The position numbers and the translations under genes are program-made. From Escherichia phage UPWr_E2: a stretch of 64,000 nucleotides of DNA. Of this stretch, positions 1-64,000 are shown one piece after another (the first letter of the stretch is position 1; each line of letters begins with the position of its first letter). The stretch lies in the sequence record PP418986.1; one strand, written 5' to 3'. The notes beneath the pieces were generated by a model that did not search any database, was not told the DNA's origin, and saw only the letters and a program-made list of their open reading frames with translations.

Positions 1-735
1 AAGATCGACGGCAGTTACAAACCCTTGATTGGTGATTACACTTCTTCCTTTGAGAATCGGATAATAACAATCCTGTGAAACATAACCATGATCGACGAAT
101 ATTGGTGCTTCTACTCGCCATTGGTTGCCCCAATCACCCGGTTGTCTAGCAATCCATCCAGAACCGTTAATGTGTACACGATCGCGGTTAACGTTAACCA
201 TTGCGATATTTTGTGGATTTAGCGAAATCTCACCATTGTTTGTGATATGTACTGCCGCCTGAGTAGCATAGCTATAAAATGCTAGCGAATTATCAGCACC
301 ACCCTTACCAATATACCAGTTACCACTCCCGTCTACGTCACCACGAATATGCAAAGCATTACCAGCAGTTGTTGATAATACAATAGAATCACCCGGACGT
401 TTAATAATCAATCTACCTTCGGATTCAATTTCACCAAAAAATTTAGTCTTAATTGCACCAGTCGCTAAAGTACGTTCAGTGGAAAAATGAACGCCTTTGC
501 TGTCTTCTAACTGAATAATGTTATCGCGCGCATTATTACTATCACCCCAATGATTAAACCGGAAATAATCACGTGATTGCTTACCACCCGCTTCAAACGT
601 CAGCGTACCTTTACTTAAATTAACATCACCGCTAAAGGTAGCAGCAAGAGAATCACGTTCTAATTTTAAAACGTTAGCACCACTAGTACCACCTAAAGTA
701 ACATCACCAGTTCTCAATTCATAACGGAAAGGTCT
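1..735 (-). CDS. 37: long tail fibre distal subunit gp37, C-terminal coding portion (partial; runs off window start; out of frame with the upstream gp37 ORF because of the 349-bp duplication)
   Basis: minus-strand frame open 735->1 with no stop; re-reads the repeat unit then ...RPGDSIVLSTTAGNALHIRGDVDGSGNWYIGKG...; no ATG inside the repeat unit. Confidence 0.5.
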
Positions 736-1084
736 AATCACCCGGACGTTTAATAATCAATCTACCTTCGGATTCAATTTCACCAAAAAATTTAGTCTTA
801 ATTGCACCAGTCGCTAAAGTACGTTCAGTGGAAAAATGAACGCCTTTGCTGTCTTCTAACTGAATAATGTTATCGCGCGCATTATTACTATCACCCCAAT
901 GATTAAACCGGAAATAATCACGTGATTGCTTACCACCCGCTTCAAACGTCAGCGTACCTTTACTTAAATTAACATCACCGCTAAAGGTAGCAGCAAGAGA
1001 ATCACGTTCTAATTTTAAAACGTTAGCACCACTAGTACCACCTAAAGTAACATCACCAGTTCTCAATTCATAACGGAAAGGTCT
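387..1084. repeat. perfect tandem direct duplication, 2 x 349 bp (387-735 and 736-1084)
   Basis: units identical at every position compared; flanking bases differ (386 vs 735; 737 vs 1086). Confidence 0.95.
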
Positions 1085-2833
1085 ATTTGTATTATAGTTT
1101 CCATTTTGATCATCTTCGTTGGTGGAAAGAATATAAAGATTCTCTCCATAAGTACGGAAAATTGTACCAAAATTTCCGGCATACATACGGAATGCATTAG
1201 ATGAGCGAAATTTAACTTCTGTTTTAAAAGTGGTAGTGTTATTAAGGTTAACAGTAGAGTTAAAATTGGTAGGAGCACCGAAGTTAACAGCACCATTAAA
1301 ATCTTGTTGAGCTGTCCATGTGTGGCAACCATCTTCAAGAACAACACGGCGGACTGTGCAAGTTCTATTTCCAGAATTACCGAACACACTAACGACAAAA
1401 TAACGGTAGTTTGTCTGGGATACAGTACCACGCCAAACCTGAACAGTACGTCCTGTGCTAGTGTGCTCGCTAGGACCAACAGAAAACATAATTAAGTTTC
1501 CGTCAATCGTACCCCAATCCATATTAGCTGGCATGTTCTTTATTTTGTTCAAAGGAACGCTAAACATACTACCAGGAACAAAATCAAATGTTTGCCAGTC
1601 TAACTCTGCTAAGTTAGATTTAATACCACCCATACCCAAAGTAATTGGAAGAGAGTAAGATGTATATACTTCGTTCCATGTACCCCAAACACCGCCGGTA
1701 TATGCACGCTCAAAAATACGATCGCGGGTAGTTGCACCTGTTCCGGCAGTAGTAAATTTTTGGAAAATAGCACCACCAGAAGCACGCTGTTTAACTTCCA
1801 GCAAACCAACAATAACGGTTGGTAAACCTTCACCTGTAGGACAGTTAATAACGGCATCAGTGCCTAAAATGTTATATAACCCAGGAGCTTTAAAATCATT
1901 CAGGTCTCCGTCATAGAAAGTCGCCGGTGTGACATTACCGACTTGTTGCCACGGTCCCCATTTAGGCGCAGATGCATCCCATGCAGCAGCAAGACAGCGA
2001 GTATAAACAACACCAAATCTGGTCGTATATCTCTGTGTGCGAGAATAGTTTCCACCTTCATATACTTCTAAAAGTCCTTGAGCTGACAATCCTTCTTCTG
2101 GGAAATTTCTGTCAAAGGTAGCAATGGAATTTGAACCATTTCGCCACAAACCAAGGTGTTCAGCGCCTCCTAGATCATTAAGATCAATCGTTGTTGACAG
2201 TGGACGAGTACCAGATTGAATATTTCGCCACGCACTCCACGGACCGTTTACTCCGTTCCATGTAGCAGTCAAGGAACGAATATAAACATTTCCGTATCTA
2301 GTTGTATATCTCTGAGTACCAGCAAATTGACCGGCCACAAATACTTCTAGAACACCTACAGCATTTTCTTCTGGAAATTTATTTGCTGGTTGAGCGTTGG
2401 TTGAAGTTGTTTTCGACCAAACTCCAAGATATTCTTCAACAGGCCCATACTCATCTAAATTAGCATCAACAGGTAATTCGCCGTTATTTTTTATAAACGT
2501 TGTGCTATTGACATTTATGTCAGATGGAGTTAGCGTGATATCTTTTGACCCATCAAAGGATATACCATTAATTTTTCGTGCTGTTTTTAATTTCGTTGCA
2601 GTTGCAGCGTTACCTGTTAAATTTCCAATTATGTTTCCATTAACAGTTAAAGAACCATCAATTGTTCCTCCATATTTTAAACCTAATTCTATAACACTAC
2701 CTGAGTCATCTTTTGTGAAAATTGTTTTATCTTTTAAGTTTATAGCCAATTCACCTTCGGCTAATACTGAAGCAGCAGGACGTTGACCTGCAGTTTTGCT
2801 TCTTTTAAATTGTATTTGTTTTAAAGTAGCCAT
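734..2833 (-). CDS. 37: long tail fibre distal subunit gp37, N-terminal ORF (699 aa, ends at a TAG formed at the duplication junction)
   Basis: N-terminus [13 protein letters not shown] typical of T-even gp37; directly downstream of gene 36; body differs from my memory of T4 gp37. Confidence 0.85.
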
Positions 2834-20576: not shown

Positions 20577-22164
<1,588 letters not shown>

Positions 22165-29236: not shown

Positions 29237-29560
29237 ATGAAAACGATTAATCTGAACGCTGCAGTTAAAACTAAATGCTTCAATGGTAAATATGATGAAA
29301 CTATGTGGTTCTTAATGGCAGTTGAAGGTGATATTATTGAAGTAGAAACAACAGAAGGTATGGGAACAGATTTCACCTTTACAATTCAAGTTCATAATTT
29401 CTTTACTGGTTGGATTTATGAATTGAATACAGTAATCGTTGGAAAAATTGAACAAAATGAATTAGGTGAATGGTATTATGTTACAGCTCGCCAACGTGCC
29501 GAACGCTTAATTGAGAAGATGAAAAAGTTGGTAAACTTGACATGCAGCATTGGAAAGTAG
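29237..29560 (+). CDS. hypothetical protein (107 aa)
   Basis: SD aaggag upstream. Confidence 0.55.
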   Translation: MKTINLNAAVKTKCFNGKYDETMWFLMAVEGDIIEVETTEGMGTDFTFTIQVHNFFTGWIYELNTVIVGKIEQNELGEWYYVTARQRAERLIEKMKKLVNLTCSIGK

Positions 29561-47003: not shown

Positions 47004-48515
47004 TTATAAATTAACTGTTTTCATTACGTAATTAAATTTTTCATCTGCGTAGCGCTGAATACGATCAATGCCGTGTTTTAAAAGATAGTTCAAGTGAACA
47101 TATTTCTTTTTAGTATTAGCAGATTTTGGCTTGACACCACAGTCATCTATGAGGTCCCAGACTGTTGCGATTGTTTTAGAACCATGTTTACGTAATACGC
47201 GACCTATTGTTTGTAATACAATGATTTTTGATTTAACACCGTGCGCTAAAACAACGTGATGCAGATTTTTAACTGAAATACCAGTAGAAAATACACCATA
47301 ACTAGCTACTATAATTATTCCTTTACCATTTTCAGCTAAGGTTTTCATTATATTGCGGGTTTCGGTATCAACTTCCCCTGATACGTAATAAACTTTATCG
47401 TATTCATTTTTAATTAAATCGAAAATAGCTTTACCATGCGATACATGTTTAAACATGACAAAAGCGTTTTCATCTTTTTGCGCAAGCTTAATAGCTAATT
47501 TAGCGATCCATTTATTTCTTTTACTAAGCCCAGTAATAATTTTTATTTCTTCTTGATAAGTTTTTCCCTTTAATTTAGTAGTGAACTCATCGGGATAGCG
47601 AAGAAAAATACTATTAATTTTTAACTCAGTTACTTGTCCATCTTCCATTAATTTAGAGGTCGTTACTGGCTTAAATATTTCACCGAACATTCCAACATAC
47701 TGCATGATATTGGCTTTGCCATCACGTAATGAACCAGACAAACCGAATTTGAACATGCAGTTATTTAAACCTGATATGATAGATGAAATACTTTTTCCTG
47801 TAGCAAGATGACATTCATCATTCATCATCATTCCAAACTGTGAGAACCATTCTTTCGGTTGTTTTACTACAGTTTGCCATGTACCAACAACGACCGGTGC
47901 ATCATTTTTATATTTATCATCTTTTGATGCTCCACCACCGATTTTCTTTATCATTGCATGACTGAATAAACGATAGTCAACAAAGTCATCAGCCATCTGA
48001 GTTGTCAGAGCAGTTGTTGGAACAATGATAAGAATTTTACCTTCATAATTTTCCAAATAATATCGCGCAAGCAAAGCTTGAATTAACGATTTACCAGCGG
48101 ATGTTGGAAGATTAAGAATTCTACGACGATTAACTAATCCTTCGAACACTGCATCTTTTTGATACCAGTGTGGTTCAATTCTTTTATTTCCTGAATAGAT
48201 TTCTAATTTAGAAAGCCATTCATCAAAATCTTTTCTTGATAATTCTTCTTTTTCGTTAATTTGTGGGTCAATCCAGGCTTTATAGCCAAAGTTATCACAG
48301 AACTTTTTAATTTGCCCGACTAAGCCGAATGGAAGAAGACGATTATAATCTAACAGACGGATTCGTCCATCCCAGTGGCCATATCTGTACTTCGGATTAA
48401 AACGATACCCATCAGCTTCAAAGCTAAAGAAATCACGGAGTTCATGAAATGTACTTTCTTCACAATCAATTCTCACGTGACTAAAATCATAAAAATGTAC
48501 TTTAATGTCAGTCAT
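47004..48515 (-). CDS. uvsW: UvsW RNA-DNA/DNA-DNA helicase
   Basis: 503 aa; SF2 helicase motifs (PTSAGKS Walker A, DECH). Confidence 0.92.
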   Translation of the reverse strand: MTDIKVHFYDFSHVRIDCEESTFHELRDFFSFEADGYRFNPKYRYGHWDGRIRLLDYNRLLPFGLVGQIKKFCDNFGYKAWIDPQINEKEELSRKDFDEWLSKLEIYSGNKRIEPHWYQKDAVFEGLVNRRRILNLPTSAGKSLIQALLARYYLENYEGKILIIVPTTALTTQMADDFVDYRLFSHAMIKKIGGGASKDDKYKNDAPVVVGTWQTVVKQPKEWFSQFGMMMNDECHLATGKSISSIISGLNNCMFKFGLSGSLRDGKANIMQYVGMFGEIFKPVTTSKLMEDGQVTELKINSIFLRYPDEFTTKLKGKTYQEEIKIITGLSKRNKWIAKLAIKLAQKDENAFVMFKHVSHGKAIFDLIKNEYDKVYYVSGEVDTETRNIMKTLAENGKGIIIVASYGVFSTGISVKNLHHVVLAHGVKSKIIVLQTIGRVLRKHGSKTIATVWDLIDDCGVKPKSANTKKKYVHLNYLLKHGIDRIQRYADEKFNYVMKTVNL

Positions 48516-48565: not shown

Positions 48566-49246
48566 ATGATAGATAAAGATTATATTGCAGAGCTGAAGGC
48601 TCTTGATGATAACAAAGAAGCTAAAGCTAAATTAGCTGAATATGCTGAACAGTTTGGTATAAAGGTCAAAAAGAATAAATCTTTTGATAATATCGTTGTT
48701 GATATTGAAGAAGCCCTCCAGAAGCTCGCTAGTGAACCTATGCCGGAGACTGATGGGTTATCTATTAAAGACTTAATTGATGCTGCTGATGCTGCAGAGG
48801 GGTTAAAATATGACGATGAAGAAGTCAATCCAGAAGCAGCACTTTTGATTGATTCTCCGGTTAAATCTGACATTAAAATTGAAGTAGTAGAAACAGATAA
48901 AATTCCTGAAAATACCACTGTTTTAATTGAAGATACTCCTTTTGTTGAAGAAAAATTCGAACAGGCTGTAGCTGAGATTATTGAATCTGAAAAGCCGTCT
49001 GTATTTACTCTTCCGGAAAACTTTAGCCCGAATCTTCAGTTGATTGGAAAAAATCCAGGATTCTGTACTGTTCCTTGGTGGATTTATCAATGGATTGCTG
49101 AAACTCCTGATTGGAAATCTCACCCAACTAGTTTTGAACATGCGTCAGCACACCAAACTTTATTTAGCTTAATTTATTACATTAACCGTGACGGATCAGT
49201 TTTAATTCGTGAAACACGCAACTCTTCTTTCGTAACATTAAAATAA
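48566..49246 (+). CDS. inh: Inh-like inhibitor of prohead protease
   Basis: 226 aa; position upstream of hoc as in T4. Confidence 0.8.
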   Translation: MIDKDYIAELKALDDNKEAKAKLAEYAEQFGIKVKKNKSFDNIVVDIEEALQKLASEPMPETDGLSIKDLIDAADAAEGLKYDDEEVNPEAALLIDSPVKSDIKIEVVETDKIPENTTVLIEDTPFVEEKFEQAVAEIIESEKPSVFTLPENFSPNLQLIGKNPGFCTVPWWIYQWIAETPDWKSHPTSFEHASAHQTLFSLIYYINRDGSVLIRETRNSSFVTLK

Positions 49247-49255
49247 GGATAACTT

Positions 49256-50673
49256 ATGGCTTTTACAGTTGATATAACTCCTAAAACACCGACAGGGGTT
49301 ATTGATGAAACTAAGCAGTTTACTGCTACACCCAGTGGTGAAACTGGAGGCGGAACTATTACATATGCTTGGACTGTAGATGATGCTCCACAAGATGGAG
49401 CTGAAGCAACTTTTGATTATGTATTAAAAGGACCTGCTGGACAAAAGACTATTAAAGTAGTTGCAACAAATACAGTTCCAGATACTGATGCTGAAACAGC
49501 AGAAGCTACTACAACTATCACAGTTCAAAATAAGACACAAACGACCACCTTAGCTGTAACTCCTAATAGCCCTGACGCTGGAGTAATTGGAACAGCTGTT
49601 CAATTTACTGCTGCCTTAGATTCGCAGCCACCAGGCGCATCGGCTACGTATCAATGGTACGTTGACGGTTCTCCTGCGGGCGAAGCAACTTCTGCTACAT
49701 TCAATTACACTCCTGACACAAGCGGAGTTAAAAAATCAAGTGTGTAGCTCAAGTAACCGCGACAGATTATGATACAAAGGAAGTTACTTCGAATGAAGTA
49801 TCACTGACTGTTAATAAAAAGGAGCAGACAACTACTTTGGCAGTAACTCCTGATAGTCCTCCAGCGGGAGTAATCGGAACCCCAGTTCAATTTACTGCTG
49901 CCTTAGCTTCTCAACCTGATGGAGCGTCTGCTACGTATCAGTGGTATGTAGATGATTCACAAGTTGGTGGAGAAACTAACTCTACATTTAGCTATACTCC
50001 AACTACAAGTGGAGTAAAAAGAATTAAATGCGTAGCCCAAGTAACTGCTGAAAATTACAATGAAAAGGAAGTTACTTCTAATGAAGTATCATTGACAGTT
50101 AATAAGAAGACAATGAATCCACAGGTTACATTGACTCCTCCTTCTATTAATGTTCAGCAAGATGCTTCGGCTACATTTACGGCTAATGTTACGGGTGCTC
50201 CAGAAGAAGCACAAATTACTTACTCATGGAAGAAAGATTCTTCTCCTGTAGAAGGGTCAACTAACGTATATACTGTCGATACCTCATCTGTTGGAAGTCA
50301 AACTATTGAAGTTACTGCTGTCGTTACTGCAACTGATTACGATAGCAAAACTATTACAGCAGAAGGTCAAGTTCAGGTAACTGATAAAGTTGCTCCAGAA
50401 CCAGAAGGTGAACTACCTTATGTTCATCCTCTTCCACATCGTACTTCAGCTTATATCTGGTGCGGTTGGTGGGTTATGGATGAAATCCAAAAAATGACCG
50501 AAGAAGGTAAAGATTGGAAAACTGACGACCCAGATAGTAAATATTACCTACATCGTTACACTCTTCAGAAGATGATGAAAGACTATCCAGAAGTTGATGT
50601 TCAAGAATCGCGTAATGGATACATCATTCATAAAACTGCTTTAGAAACTGGTATCATCTATACCTATCCATAA
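49256..50673 (+). CDS. hoc: Hoc outer capsid decoration protein, interrupted by a -1 frameshift in an A6 run (49730-49735); four Ig-like domains
   Basis: ORF 49256-49747 and ORF 49837-50673 together read as Hoc if one A is added to the run; C-terminal ...YVHPLPHRTSAYIWCGWWVMDEIQK... matches T4 Hoc. Confidence 0.8.
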
Positions 50674-50684
50674 TCATAATCATA

Positions 50685-50712
50685 AGGGGCTTCGGCCCCT
50701 TTCTTCATTTTG
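50685..50712 (+). terminator. rho-independent terminator after hoc
   Basis: aggggc-ttcg-gcccct then ttcttcatttt. Confidence 0.75.
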
Positions 50713-59651: not shown

Positions 59652-61631
59652 TTAACCAGCAAGACCAGTTAACTCATCGAAATCTGCACCAGTAGCAGTT
59701 GCTACGAAGTTCAAGGTAATGTAGTTAATGCTTCTAGCCGGTTGAATGTAGAATGTTGCAACAAACTCATTTCTATCAATTACTGACGGAGTGTTATTTG
59801 TTGTATCGCAAACTACACGATATTCATAAATTCCACCGAGAGCTTTAATTCCCTGTAAGTATTGGGCAGTTTCTGTGCGGAATGATGAACGAGTAAACGC
59901 GTTGTTTAATTCGAACAAACGATATTTTGAACTACGTCCGATATTCGTTTTCAACATATTAAACAGACGACGAACGTTAATACGATCAAATGGAGAAGGA
60001 ACAGAAGTAGCTGTTTTATCACCATACAATACGTAACCATCACCACCTGTACCAGTTACTGGGTTGATAGCTTCTTGATATAAACGGTCGCGCTGAGCTT
60101 GGCGAGTTTCAATAGCAAGTTTAATAACGTTAAGAATCTGACCACGATTATAACCAGCTGGAGACATCCAAGTCTGAGAAACGTTATCAGTTCTCGCGCA
60201 TAAACCAGCAATGTCAGCTGCTAATGGAACCCAACGATTTACATCATTATATTTGTCATACTGATATTTGTAGTTACCATCAATTGCTGCGTAGGTTGAA
60301 CTAATATTAAAGTTATTATCAGTATATGAACCTGCCGCAGTTCTCCAGTTAACTAAATTATCTACTGCACGAGTTACAGGAATTCCAACAACAGTTTCAC
60401 GCGGTGGTGAGCACAATACTAAGCAATCTTGGCGAGCATCTCCAATTGAAACGACGTGTTTTTGGACAGTAGATGCTGTTTCTAAAGATTCACCGGCACA
60501 AGAACCCGCAATAAACAACTGAACGTCAACAGATTCGCGGTCAGCAAAGAAGTCCCAAGCTTCCATCAAATCTCCTGCTGTTACTTCAGCATTTGATGAT
60601 AATCCACCAGACAGAGTTAAAATTCCAGAGAAGCCTTCTGGCCAGTTTTGCGCAGTTGCGAAAATATATTCTGAACCACCTTTTGCGAAAAAGTCATCAA
60701 TATAGATGTTACTATCGTAAATATCTTTTTCACCACGCTTAGTTGAAAGAACAACGCTTTGAACAATAGCATCATTTCGACGAACTATAATAGCGTACTG
60801 TGAGTCAGTCTGCGGCCCATATCCAAATACTGCCTTGGCAGTAGATGCACGAGTACCACCACCTGGATAAATTGGCAGTAATGCAGAAGCGCCTTTCGCA
60901 TAGTCAGCTTTAGATACGATTTCAATTTCAATTTTATCGCCTAATTCGCCTGGATAGAGAGCTACTACTCCTGGAATTCCATATTTTTCAAGATTTGCCT
61001 GAAAATCAACTGCTGTCATAGCAGTTTCAGCGCTCTCGATTTCAGCTAATAAAATACCGGAATCAGTAATAATTTTTCCAAGAGTTATTACTGCAGCTAA
61101 ACCGGAAGAAGATGAAGAAATTTCTGCAGTCCAGTTAGAACCTAATGTTGGGTATTCGCCAACTTCTTTAGCTTTAGCAATAATTTTTGCAGTAGGAATA
61201 TTAATTTTCTTAATTTTTCCATCAGCATCTACTTCGGTAATTTTACCTTCTGTTTCAACATCTTCTGAAACATATTTGACCGTGATTTTATCTCCAACCG
61301 CGTAGTTACTACCTGGGGTAGAAATTGTGTATTCAATATTACCAGCAATCGGAGATGAGTTTTTAGCGGTATCTCTATCGACAGCGCGCACAACTCGCAA
61401 ATCATTTCCATATTGTAAGAAATTCATTACAGACATAAAATAGTCAGCAGTTTCAGCTGTAGGTTGACCAAAAGTATTAACTAAATCTACTTCGTTTGTA
61501 ACCTGTTTAATCTGAAAAGCAGGACCCCACTGGAATTTACCGGCCAAAGCTGCTGTACCAGTAGAGTTATTAACCACGGTGCTTTGAACCGTAGTTTCTT
61601 TGAGCTCAATGCCCGGAGATAATAAAGTCAT
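59652..61631 (-). CDS. 18: tail sheath protein gp18
   Basis: 659 aa, T4 gp18 length. Confidence 0.95.
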   Translation of the reverse strand: MTLLSPGIELKETTVQSTVVNNSTGTAALAGKFQWGPAFQIKQVTNEVDLVNTFGQPTAETADYFMSVMNFLQYGNDLRVVRAVDRDTAKNSSPIAGNIEYTISTPGSNYAVGDKITVKYVSEDVETEGKITEVDADGKIKKINIPTAKIIAKAKEVGEYPTLGSNWTAEISSSSSGLAAVITLGKIITDSGILLAEIESAETAMTAVDFQANLEKYGIPGVVALYPGELGDKIEIEIVSKADYAKGASALLPIYPGGGTRASTAKAVFGYGPQTDSQYAIIVRRNDAIVQSVVLSTKRGEKDIYDSNIYIDDFFAKGGSEYIFATAQNWPEGFSGILTLSGGLSSNAEVTAGDLMEAWDFFADRESVDVQLFIAGSCAGESLETASTVQKHVVSIGDARQDCLVLCSPPRETVVGIPVTRAVDNLVNWRTAAGSYTDNNFNISSTYAAIDGNYKYQYDKYNDVNRWVPLAADIAGLCARTDNVSQTWMSPAGYNRGQILNVIKLAIETRQAQRDRLYQEAINPVTGTGGDGYVLYGDKTATSVPSPFDRINVRRLFNMLKTNIGRSSKYRLFELNNAFTRSSFRTETAQYLQGIKALGGIYEYRVVCDTTNNTPSVIDRNEFVATFYIQPARSINYITLNFVATATGADFDELTGLAG

Positions 61632-61660
61632 TTTTAATCCTCTTTAATATGCTTTAATAT

Positions 61661-64000
<2,340 letters not shown>

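What the first reader, a model, noticed from the sequence alone, without database searches (positions are those of the whole stretch)
49256..50673. hoc interrupted by a single-A frameshift in an A6 run, and carrying an extra Ig-like domain
The Hoc reading frame runs 49256-49747 (ends TAG) and resumes in the -1 frame from 49732 to 50673. Adding one A to the run at 49730-49735 gives gtt aaa aaa atc aag tgt... and a continuous ~471-aa Hoc. Relative to T4 Hoc (376 aa from memory) there is one extra ~96-aa Ig-like repeat (QTTTLAVTP...SLTVNKK occurs twice, about 80 percent identical at DNA level). The frameshift may be a homopolymer sequencing error, a genuine hoc-null allele (hoc is dispensable) or a ribosomal slippage site.
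Basis: partly seen in the sequence, partly recalled or inferred. Interest (0 to 1): 0.5.

Follow-up and report, generated by a model that had tools for sequence, protein, structure and literature searches.

The report
Broken hoc gene at a slippery A-run
The capsid-decoration gene hoc of this T4-like phage (almost certainly Escherichia phage UPWr_E2) is cut short by loss of one A from a seven-A run, and that same run is found shortened or lengthened in many other T-even phages including phage T2, so it is most likely an ordinary knockout at a mutation hotspot in a dispensable gene rather than a programmed recoding signal.

Summary
Adding one A gives a 472-aa Hoc identical to that of the nearest relative, Yersinia phage PYps55T, which has A7. 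The extra Ig domain is real but common. The window is Escherichia phage UPWr_E2. The tract GGAGTT-A7-TCAAGTG is a recurrent frameshift site. It is A6 in phage T2 (2238/2238 Illumina reads), CE1, PM107/PM108/101117BS1 and several ENA/Logan contigs. It is A8 in ACG-C40 and other Logan/ENA contigs. T6 has a +1 change at the homologous position. In each complete Logan/ENA locus checked at DNA level this is the only lesion. A same-length T7 run in rnlA is contracted in 0/413 deposited genomes, against 11/149 for hoc, so generic miscalling does not explain the pattern. There is no frameshift-stimulating structure and no conservation of the shifted state. Best reading: a real replication-slippage hoc-null allele (about 0.6). 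A homopolymer miscall remains plausible (about 0.3), because the record also has a second A-run contraction and a 349-nt duplication that breaks essential gene 37. Programmed recoding is unlikely.

The parts
49245..49249 (+). Shine-Dalgarno-like AAGGA, 6 nt upstream of the hoc ATG
   Evidence: Read from the sequence. SV76 annotates a ribosome-binding site at the equivalent place.
49256..49747 (+). hoc 5' reading frame: Ig domain 1 and most of Ig domain 2, then four out-of-frame codons (K S S V) and TAG. The product is 163 aa and lacks the capsid-binding domain.
   Evidence: 100% identical to WWT37036.1 of Escherichia phage UPWr_E2. Weak Pfam PKD hit.
49730..49735 (+). A6 homopolymer tract, the lesion. 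It is A7 in the nearest relative and in most hoc genes that carry this segment.
   Evidence: A7 in PYps55T, UPWr_E4, two IMG/VR contigs and 4 metagenome loci.
49732..50673 (+). Remainder of hoc in the -1 frame: end of Ig domain 2, Ig domains 3 and 4, and the C-terminal capsid-binding domain. Stop TAA at 50671-50673.
   Evidence: The repaired protein matches T4 Hoc residues 95-376 over its residues 191-472. PKD, Ig_3 and I-set hits.
49538..49824 (+). Ig repeat 1 (Hoc residues 95-190, numbered on the repaired protein). It contains the A tract. This repeat and the next are a tandem pair, and T4 has one of them.
   Evidence: 76/96 aa, about 74% nt identity to repeat 2. Alignment with T4.
49825..50109 (+). 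Ig repeat 2 (residues 191-285)
50011..50031 (+). Paralogous site in repeat 2, GGAGTAAAAAGAATTAAATGC (S G V K R I K C). The run is interrupted by G and is in frame here. The homologous site is frameshifted (+1) in T6 and (-1) in PM105.
49819..49839 (+). AAGGAG (49819-49824) followed 12 nt later by TTG (49837). This is the only start codon in the downstream frame before 49900, and a possible weak restart giving a 278-aa C-terminal fragment.
   Evidence: Whether it is used is inference only.
50686..50709 (+). GGGGC-TTCG-GCCCC hairpin followed by a T-rich stretch: the likely intrinsic terminator after hoc
   Evidence: Read from the sequence. A terminator is annotated at the same place in SV76 and in G8-type records.

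Best explanation
This is a loss-of-function allele of hoc made by replication slippage. An ancestral run of seven A's in the codons Val-Lys-Lys-Ile of the second Ig domain lost one A. Translation leaves the hoc frame, reads K-S-S-V and stops. The result is a 163-aa N-terminal fragment without the C-terminal capsid-binding domain, so virions should carry little or no Hoc. Hoc is dispensable for growth, so the phage stays viable. The tract is a hotspot that changes length in both directions in many T-even phages. The window shows its OFF state, not a programmed recoding site. Shown: the lesion, its derived status, its recurrence elsewhere, and the absence of recoding signals. Inferred: that the A6 is in the phage DNA and not only in the assembly, and that virions lack Hoc.
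For: (1) Derived state. The window differs from PYps55T (Illumina/SPAdes) by 56 substitutions and 2 indels in about 63 kb, and hoc differs only by this A. (2) The same allele is real elsewhere. All 8 T2/SV76 records are identical across hoc and carry GGAGTT-A6-TCAAGTG. In the Gomez et al. preprint, Supplemental Table 5, the run at nt 337-342 of the 354-nt Hoc-like CDS shows 6 bases in 2238/2238 Illumina reads. (3) Recurrence in both directions, in different hoc backgrounds. A6: CE1, PM107/PM108/101117BS1, Logan SRR29423813, three ENA contig sets. A8: Logan SRR8865578 plus ENA ERZ28496081, a further ENA contig (P0053), Logan ERR3531242, Logan SRR34396944, ACG-C40. T6 has a +1 change at the homologous position in two independent genome projects. 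In each complete Logan/ENA locus checked at DNA level the tract change is the only lesion. (4) Controls against generic miscalling. A same-length T7 run in rnlA is contracted in 0 of 413 deposited genomes, against 11 of 149 for hoc. Fisher p = 3e-7 by record and 0.016 after collapsing lineages. For the essential gene 22 A7 run, the large protein collection holds 2 independent contraction cases and none from an NCBI genome, against 8 Logan/ENA plus at least 6 NCBI cases for hoc. (5) UPWr_E4, from the same laboratory, has this tract as A7 and an intact 472-aa Hoc. (6) Both indels in the window lie where a frameshift is tolerated: hoc, and the last 13 codons of 30.8. Random errors would do this with p of about 0.31. 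(7) Homopolymer runs of 6 or more in T2/T4/T6 show +/-1 variants at about 3e-4 per run and revert at high frequency. Hoc dispensability is established T4 genetics and is restated.
Against: No reads are available, and the sequencing platform of UPWr_E2 could not be found. The same record has a perfect 349-nt tandem duplication that truncates essential gene 37, so it contains at least one probable assembly artefact. Both indels relative to PYps55T are one-A deletions in A runs, which is also the signature of long-read or flow-based under-calling. Some supporting cases are themselves doubtful. PM105 has an odd +1/-1 pair. ACG-C40 also has a split rnlB. One ENA contig has about 1x coverage. The four true hoc loci found in metagenomes are all A7. 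If the non-T2 deposits count as one event and T2 is excluded, the rnlA contrast is not significant (p = 0.25).
Confidence: 0.62

Rival explanations
1. Sequencing or assembly artefact. The phage really has A7 and an intact 472-aa Hoc, and the consensus under-called one A in the homopolymer.
For: Both indels relative to the Illumina-sequenced nearest relative are single-A deletions in A runs. At the second site the window's A5 is shared by only 3 of 433 records. The record carries a 349-nt perfect tandem duplication that breaks essential gene 37, so it is not error-free. The essential gene 22 A7 run is also found contracted in a few raw assemblies, which shows that such errors do occur. The hoc tract would be one of only three runs of 7 or more in the 64 kb.
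Against: The two other 7-base runs in the window are intact. The sibling phage UPWr_E4 from the same laboratory has this tract as A7. Across deposited genomes a same-length run in rnlA is never contracted, 0/413, so the per-run error rate is below about 1%, while out-of-frame hoc tracts are several per cent. T2 proves that the identical allele exists in real DNA. Both indels fall in dispensable sequence.
Confidence: 0.33
2. Programmed recoding. The A6 genome is the functional state, and full-length Hoc is made by -1 ribosomal frameshifting or transcriptional slippage on the A run, as in dnaX or phage tail chaperone genes.
For: A -1 slip of tRNA-Lys anywhere in AAA AAA would restore exactly the ancestral V-K-K-I-K-C reading (sequence). 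Lys codons in A runs are known to be slippery in E. coli (general knowledge, not tested here). The downstream frame has no further lesion.
Against: The 0-frame motif is U AAA AAA, not a full X XXY YYZ heptamer. The 80 nt downstream fold no better than shuffled sequence (z = -0.76). The upstream GGAG is just the conserved Ser-Gly codons and is also present in the in-frame paralogue. The shifted arrangement is not conserved: most relatives are in-frame A7, and other alleles are A8, which would need the opposite shift. T2, with the same A6, has two further frame-breaking deletions, as expected of a dead gene.
Confidence: 0.03

Closest known systems
T4 Hoc (highly immunogenic outer capsid protein; PDB 5vf3, 8t1x and others)
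   Same: Same locus between inh and 24.3/rnlB. Same C-terminal capsid-binding domain and same string of Ig-like domains. The repaired protein matches T4 Hoc at E = 4e-222.
   Different: One additional Ig domain (472 aa against 376 aa), and the reading frame is interrupted. T4 has GTA AAA AGA ATT at this position, so it lacks the A7 tract.
472-aa five-domain Hoc of PYps55T, UPWr_E4 and many other Tequatrovirus phages
   Same: Identical to PYps55T Hoc apart from the missing base. In one search, 53 of the 60 best hoc matches span 1418-1421 nt, the five-domain form.
   Different: Those genes carry A7 and are intact.
hoc pseudogene of phage T2 (and the broken hoc of T6)
   Same: T2 carries the identical GGAGTT-A6-TCAAGTGTGTAG allele, verified by deep Illumina reads. 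T6 is frameshifted at the homologous codon position.
   Different: T2 hoc has the four-domain layout and two further deletions (11 nt and 2 nt), so it is decayed. T6 has a +1 change in an AAAAAG context. The window's gene has a single lesion.
Homopolymer 'contingency loci' of T-even phages (agt, rIIA; Gomez, Barrick and Waters, bioRxiv 10.1101/2025.10.21.683753) and classical Streisinger slippage hotspots
   Same: A run of 6 or more identical bases inside a non-essential gene, with +/-1 length changes that switch the gene off. T4 30.8, the site of the window's other indel, is on their list of putative loci.
   Different: That study demonstrated high-frequency reversion and a fitness trade-off for agt and rIIA. 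Neither has been measured for hoc. I found no description of this hoc tract in the searchable literature.
Programmed -1 frameshift sites (E. coli dnaX, phage tail assembly chaperones)
   Same: A run of A's encoding Lys-Lys at the frame junction.
   Different: No full heptamer, no stimulatory structure, no conservation of the shifted arrangement, and an in-frame ancestor.

Membership tests
Hoc family (T4-type capsid decoration protein) | C-terminal capsid-binding domain homologous to T4 Hoc residues about 281-376 | tested here: met
   The repaired protein's residues 191-472 align to T4 Hoc 95-376 (5vf3_Z, E = 4e-222). The C-terminal DNA is nearly identical to T4.
Hoc family (T4-type capsid decoration protein) | N-terminal string of Ig-like domains | tested here: met
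   Pfam PKD (38.5 bits, cutoff 23.5), Ig_3 and I-set hits. Four tandem units of about 95 aa, against three in T4. Variable domain number is described for the family (PMC10385173).
Hoc family (T4-type capsid decoration protein) | Conserved position between inh and 24.3/24.2/rnlB | tested here: met
Hoc family (T4-type capsid decoration protein) | Single uninterrupted ORF giving a protein present on the capsid | tested here: not met
   The frame is broken at 49730-49747. Presence on virions cannot be tested with these tools.
Programmed -1 ribosomal frameshift site | Slippery heptamer X XXY YYZ in the upstream frame | tested here: not met
   The 0-frame reads GUU AAA AAA UCA, that is U AAA AAA. 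Only the A-site codon can re-pair perfectly.
Programmed -1 ribosomal frameshift site | Stimulatory downstream structure or correctly spaced upstream SD | tested here: not met
   Fold of 49736-49815: -14.7 kcal/mol, z = -0.76, and 43/200 shuffles fold as well.
Programmed -1 ribosomal frameshift site | The shifted arrangement is conserved among relatives | tested here: not met
   In-frame A7 in PYps55T, UPWr_E4 and the IMG/VR and metagenome loci. About 138 of 149 INPHARED records with this segment are not A6. Other alleles are A8.
Simple-sequence contingency locus (phase-variable gene) | Homopolymer tract of 6 or more inside the coding sequence, where +/-1 changes switch the gene off or on | tested here: met
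   A7 is in frame, and A6 and A8 are out of frame.
Simple-sequence contingency locus (phase-variable gene) | Independent +/-1 variants in otherwise intact genes across lineages | tested here: met
   At least 8 A6 and at least 5 A8 backgrounds. In the complete Logan/ENA loci checked at DNA level the tract change is the only lesion. Some of these cases may be assembly errors.
Simple-sequence contingency locus (phase-variable gene) | Elevated and reversible switching measured within a population | not testable with these tools
   It needs deep sequencing or a genetic assay. The only read-level datum is T2's A6 run with 0 variant reads of 2238 in one population.
Simple-sequence contingency locus (phase-variable gene) | Fitness trade-off between the ON and OFF states | not tested
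Homopolymer base-calling artefact | Indel confined to a homopolymer, with other anomalies in the same assembly | tested here: met
   Second A-run contraction at 29522-29526, and a 349-nt duplication breaking gene 37.
Homopolymer base-calling artefact | Reads disagree with the consensus, or support is strand- or platform-biased | not testable with these tools
   No reads are available and the genome paper is not held.

The most novel reading that the evidence does not exclude
The poly-A tract in the second Ig domain of hoc is a true contingency locus. It switches Hoc display on and off reversibly (A7 to and from A6 or A8) at high frequency. T-even phage populations would then always contain decorated and undecorated virions, a bet-hedge between mucus or surface adherence and, for example, immune visibility or aggregation behaviour. 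T2, T6 and UPWr_E2 would be lineages caught or fixed in the OFF state.
Probability: 0.2. Interest if true: 0.7.

Novelty: new member of a known kind. Interest (0 to 1): 0.4.

Why it matters
For this genome, it means UPWr_E2, a phage used in poultry biocontrol cocktails, probably makes virions without Hoc. Hoc is the most immunogenic and mucus- and surface-interacting capsid protein, so this could change the phage's persistence and antigenicity. The record also needs checking at three places. More generally, the survey suggests that one short A-run makes hoc unusually prone to switching off and possibly back on across T-even phages. The classical strains T2 and T6 both carry a broken hoc at this position. 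That gives a concrete, testable candidate for phase-variable capsid decoration. It is also a practical warning for people who use hoc as a display or insertion site, as.

Tried and rejected
- The exact-sequence lookup of the 163-aa product in assemblies found nothing, although the clustered protein collection did hold it.
- An exact-pattern scan of IMG/VR gave one A7 hit.
- Protein-guided IMG/VR loci were mostly too divergent to contain the tract.
- The metagenome pattern scan returned 46 loci. Only 4 were hoc (all A7), and every A6-length match was a chance hit in an unrelated contig.
- I guessed the window might be a sibling PYps phage. PYps32T, 35T and 47T are in the collection with intact hoc, and none is the window.
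- The seed-spanning megablast method cannot count runs of 7 or more, or the gene 22 run, because the low-complexity filter masks them. I verified this locally. The A7 denominator therefore came from a 67-nt query, and the essential-gene control had to be done at protein level.
- The UPWr genome paper (Vet Microbiol 301:110363) is not held, so the sequencing platform is unknown.
- The 'hoc' hit in the main text of the contingency-locus preprint was only the surname Hochhauser. The useful data were in its supplementary tables.
- I considered whether T2's 11-nt deletion and its A6 compensate each other. They do not: the three lesions total 14 nt, and the gene is annotated in three or four pieces.
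- I rejected feature counts as a proxy for assembly quality in the PM phages, because the annotation pipelines differ.

Full report
**What is in the window**

The region lies in a T4-type late-gene block: uvsW (47004-48515, minus strand), inh (48566-49246), hoc, 24.3, 24.2, rnlB. hoc starts at ATG 49256 and is read for 159 native codons. It then reaches the run AAAAAA at 49730-49735, reads K-S-S-V and stops at TAG 49745-49747, giving 163 aa. The -1 frame is open from 49732 to TAA 50671-50673. Inserting one A gives GTT AAA AAA ATC AAG TGT and a 1419-nt, 472-aa ORF.

**Identity of the sequence**

Over about 63 kb the window differs from Yersinia phage PYps55T (MT515756) by 56 substitutions, 44 of them clustered at 61130-63920, and by only two indels. 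Both indels are losses of one A from an A run. One is A5 against A6 at 29522-29526, near the end of T4 gene 30.8. The other is A6 against A7 in hoc.

The 163-aa product is 100% identical to WWT37036.1, 'capsid and scaffold protein' of Escherichia phage UPWr_E2, on a 168,127-bp genome. That phage is a Wroclaw wastewater isolate used in poultry biocontrol cocktails. The window is therefore almost certainly UPWr_E2. Its genome paper is not held, so I could not find the sequencing platform.

**The extra Ig domain**

The repaired protein aligns to T4 Hoc over residues 191-472 against 95-376 (PDB 5vf3_Z, E = 4e-222). It has PKD, Ig_3 and I-set hits. T4 has one such unit.

This form is not unusual. 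In one search, 53 of the 60 best hoc matches span 1418-1421 nt. The database also holds in-frame Hoc variants of 164, 224 and 280-283 aa and a probable six-domain form. A published survey describes Hoc homologues with up to ten Ig domains (PMC10385173).

**The tract is a recurrent frameshift site**

I used a 46-nt megablast query in which every 28-mer seed must span the whole A6 run, so only A6 alleles can seed. About 149 records carry this segment.

T2 hoc is a decayed gene with an 11-nt deletion, this A6, and a 2-nt deletion. All T2/SV76 records are identical there. In the supplementary read tables of Gomez, Barrick and Waters (bioRxiv 10.1101/2025.10.21.683753), the run at nt 337-342 of the 354-nt Hoc-like CDS is 6 bases in 2238 of 2238 Illumina reads. 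The identical allele therefore exists in real DNA.

T6 is frameshifted at the homologous codon position by +1 (GTT AAA AAG AAT TAA against T4's GTA AAA AGA ATT AAA). This is seen in two independent genome projects.

A search of the 5.8-billion-protein collection with the truncated product found many more N-terminal Hoc fragments ending exactly here:

- A6 type (...SGVKKSSV or ...KKLSV): CE1, one Logan contig and three ENA contig sets.
- A8 type (...SGVKKNQVCSSSNCGRL or ...KKN): three Logan runs, two ENA assemblies and ACG-C40.

DNA retrieved for six of them confirmed A6 or A8. In every complete locus the tract change was the only lesion. FriedrichMiescher's 'Hoc part 1' ends in the G run just before the second repeat's homologous site.

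**Error or biology**

Miscalls do not depend on whether a gene matters, so I used other runs as controls.

- *rnlA control.* The T7 run in rnlA (window 21094-21100) occurs in 413 deposited genomes, and its contracted form occurs in none. For hoc the figure is 11 of 149. Fisher p = 3e-7 by record and 0.016 after collapsing to three lineages. It is 0.25 if T2 is set aside and the non-T2 deposits count as one event.
- *Gene 22 control.* For the A7 run of essential gene 22, the protein collection holds two independent contraction cases. One is from two Logan runs of a single project and one is from an ENA contig. None is from an NCBI genome. That sets a non-zero error or defective-genome background in raw assemblies. 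The hoc tract has eight Logan/ENA cases and at least six NCBI phages or lineages, although only about a fifth of hoc genes carry it.
- *Same laboratory.* UPWr_E4 has this tract as A7 and an intact 472-aa Hoc.
- *Location of the indels.* Both window indels fall where a frameshift is tolerated. Two random errors among runs of 6 or more would do that with p of about 0.31.
- *Known slippage rates.* Homopolymer runs of 6 or more in T2/T4/T6 show +/-1 variants at about 3e-4 per run and revert at high frequency. T4 30.8 is on the preprint's list of putative loci.

**Evidence pointing to an artefact**

The same record has a perfect tandem duplication of 349 nt (387-736 and 736-1085) that cuts the essential distal tail-fibre gene 37 to 699 aa, against 995 aa in PYps55T. 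A viable phage cannot have that, so the assembly contains at least one probable artefact. Two A-run deletions are also what long-read or flow-based consensus errors look like. At 30.8 the window's A5 is shared by only 3 of 433 records.

Some supporting cases are weak. PM105 has an odd +1/-1 pair at the two homologous sites. ACG-C40 also has a split rnlB. One ENA contig has about 1x coverage. The four true hoc loci from metagenomes are all A7.

**Recoding**

A -1 slip on the Lys codons would restore the ancestral reading, so some leaky full-length product is conceivable. The other evidence is against a designed signal:

- The 0-frame motif is U AAA AAA, not a full slippery heptamer.
- The downstream 80 nt fold no better than shuffled sequence (z = -0.76).
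- The shifted state is not conserved, and the in-frame A7 is the common and ancestral form.
- Other alleles are A8, which would need the opposite shift.
- T2 went on to accumulate more lesions.

The only start codon in the downstream frame before 49900 is TTG 49837, 12 nt after AAGGAG. A restart product is possible but untested.

**Verdict**

The frameshift and the extra domain are real features of the sequence. The extra domain is ordinary. The break is a one-base contraction of a slippage-prone A7 tract that is a recurrent, bidirectional frameshift site in hoc of T-even phages. I put about 0.62 on a genuine hoc-null allele in UPWr_E2, about 0.33 on a homopolymer miscall, and about 0.03 on programmed recoding. 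I did not find this tract's behaviour described in the literature I could search. It fits the recently proposed class of phage contingency loci, but reversibility and any benefit are unmeasured.

Noticed in passing
window 387-1085: Perfect tandem duplication of 349 nt (387-736 and 736-1085), absent from PYps55T, inside gene 37 (distal long tail fibre). Because 349 is not a multiple of 3, the ORF is cut to 699 aa against 995 aa. This is probably an assembly artefact, for example an untrimmed contig-end overlap.
   Followed up: partly
window 29522-29526: The second A-run contraction relative to PYps55T (A5 against A6), in the last 13 codons of T4 gene 30.8. It changes the C-terminus (107 aa against 110 aa). 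430 deposited genomes have A6. Only P922 and KAW1E185 share A5.
   Followed up: yes
window 61130-63920: 44 of the 56 substitutions relative to PYps55T cluster here, in the gene 18/17/16 region. It looks like a recombination patch from another Tequatrovirus.
   Followed up: no
L030 1550-2666 (T2, AP018813); L036 1204-2335 (T6, NC_054907): Both classical phages T2 and T6 carry a broken hoc. T2 has three lesions. T6 has a single +1 change at the homologous Ser-Gly-Val-Lys site. A 2026 reporter-phage study used the T6 fragment as a 'Hoc-like' insertion locus without noting that the gene is split.
   Followed up: yes
L004 1969-1990 and 2258-2277 (PM105, MZ234041): hoc has an extra base at the repeat 1 site (the same sequence as T6) and a missing G at the repeat 2 site, as if a G had moved between the two repeats. 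Either this is a consensus error between about 75%-identical repeats, or it is gene conversion.
   Followed up: partly
P0054 (FriedrichMiescher), P0005/P0006 and others (283 aa), P0049 (224 aa), P0042 (164 aa), L061: Hoc domain number varies widely by in-frame gain or loss of repeats. Variants range from 164 to 283 aa, and L061 is a probable six-domain form. FriedrichMiescher's 'Hoc part 1' stops in a G run just before the second-repeat site.
   Followed up: partly
L092 1656-1680, L093 240-264 (Logan ERR4622923/ERR4622921); P0063 (ENA): The A7 run of essential scaffold gene 22 is A6 in these assemblies. This cannot be a viable genome, so it gives an estimate of homopolymer error or defective genomes in raw public assemblies.
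   Followed up: partly
L095 532-1536 (ACG-C40, JN986846): rnlB is annotated in two pieces in the same genome that has the A8 hoc tract. That suggests several homopolymer errors in this older record.
   Followed up: no
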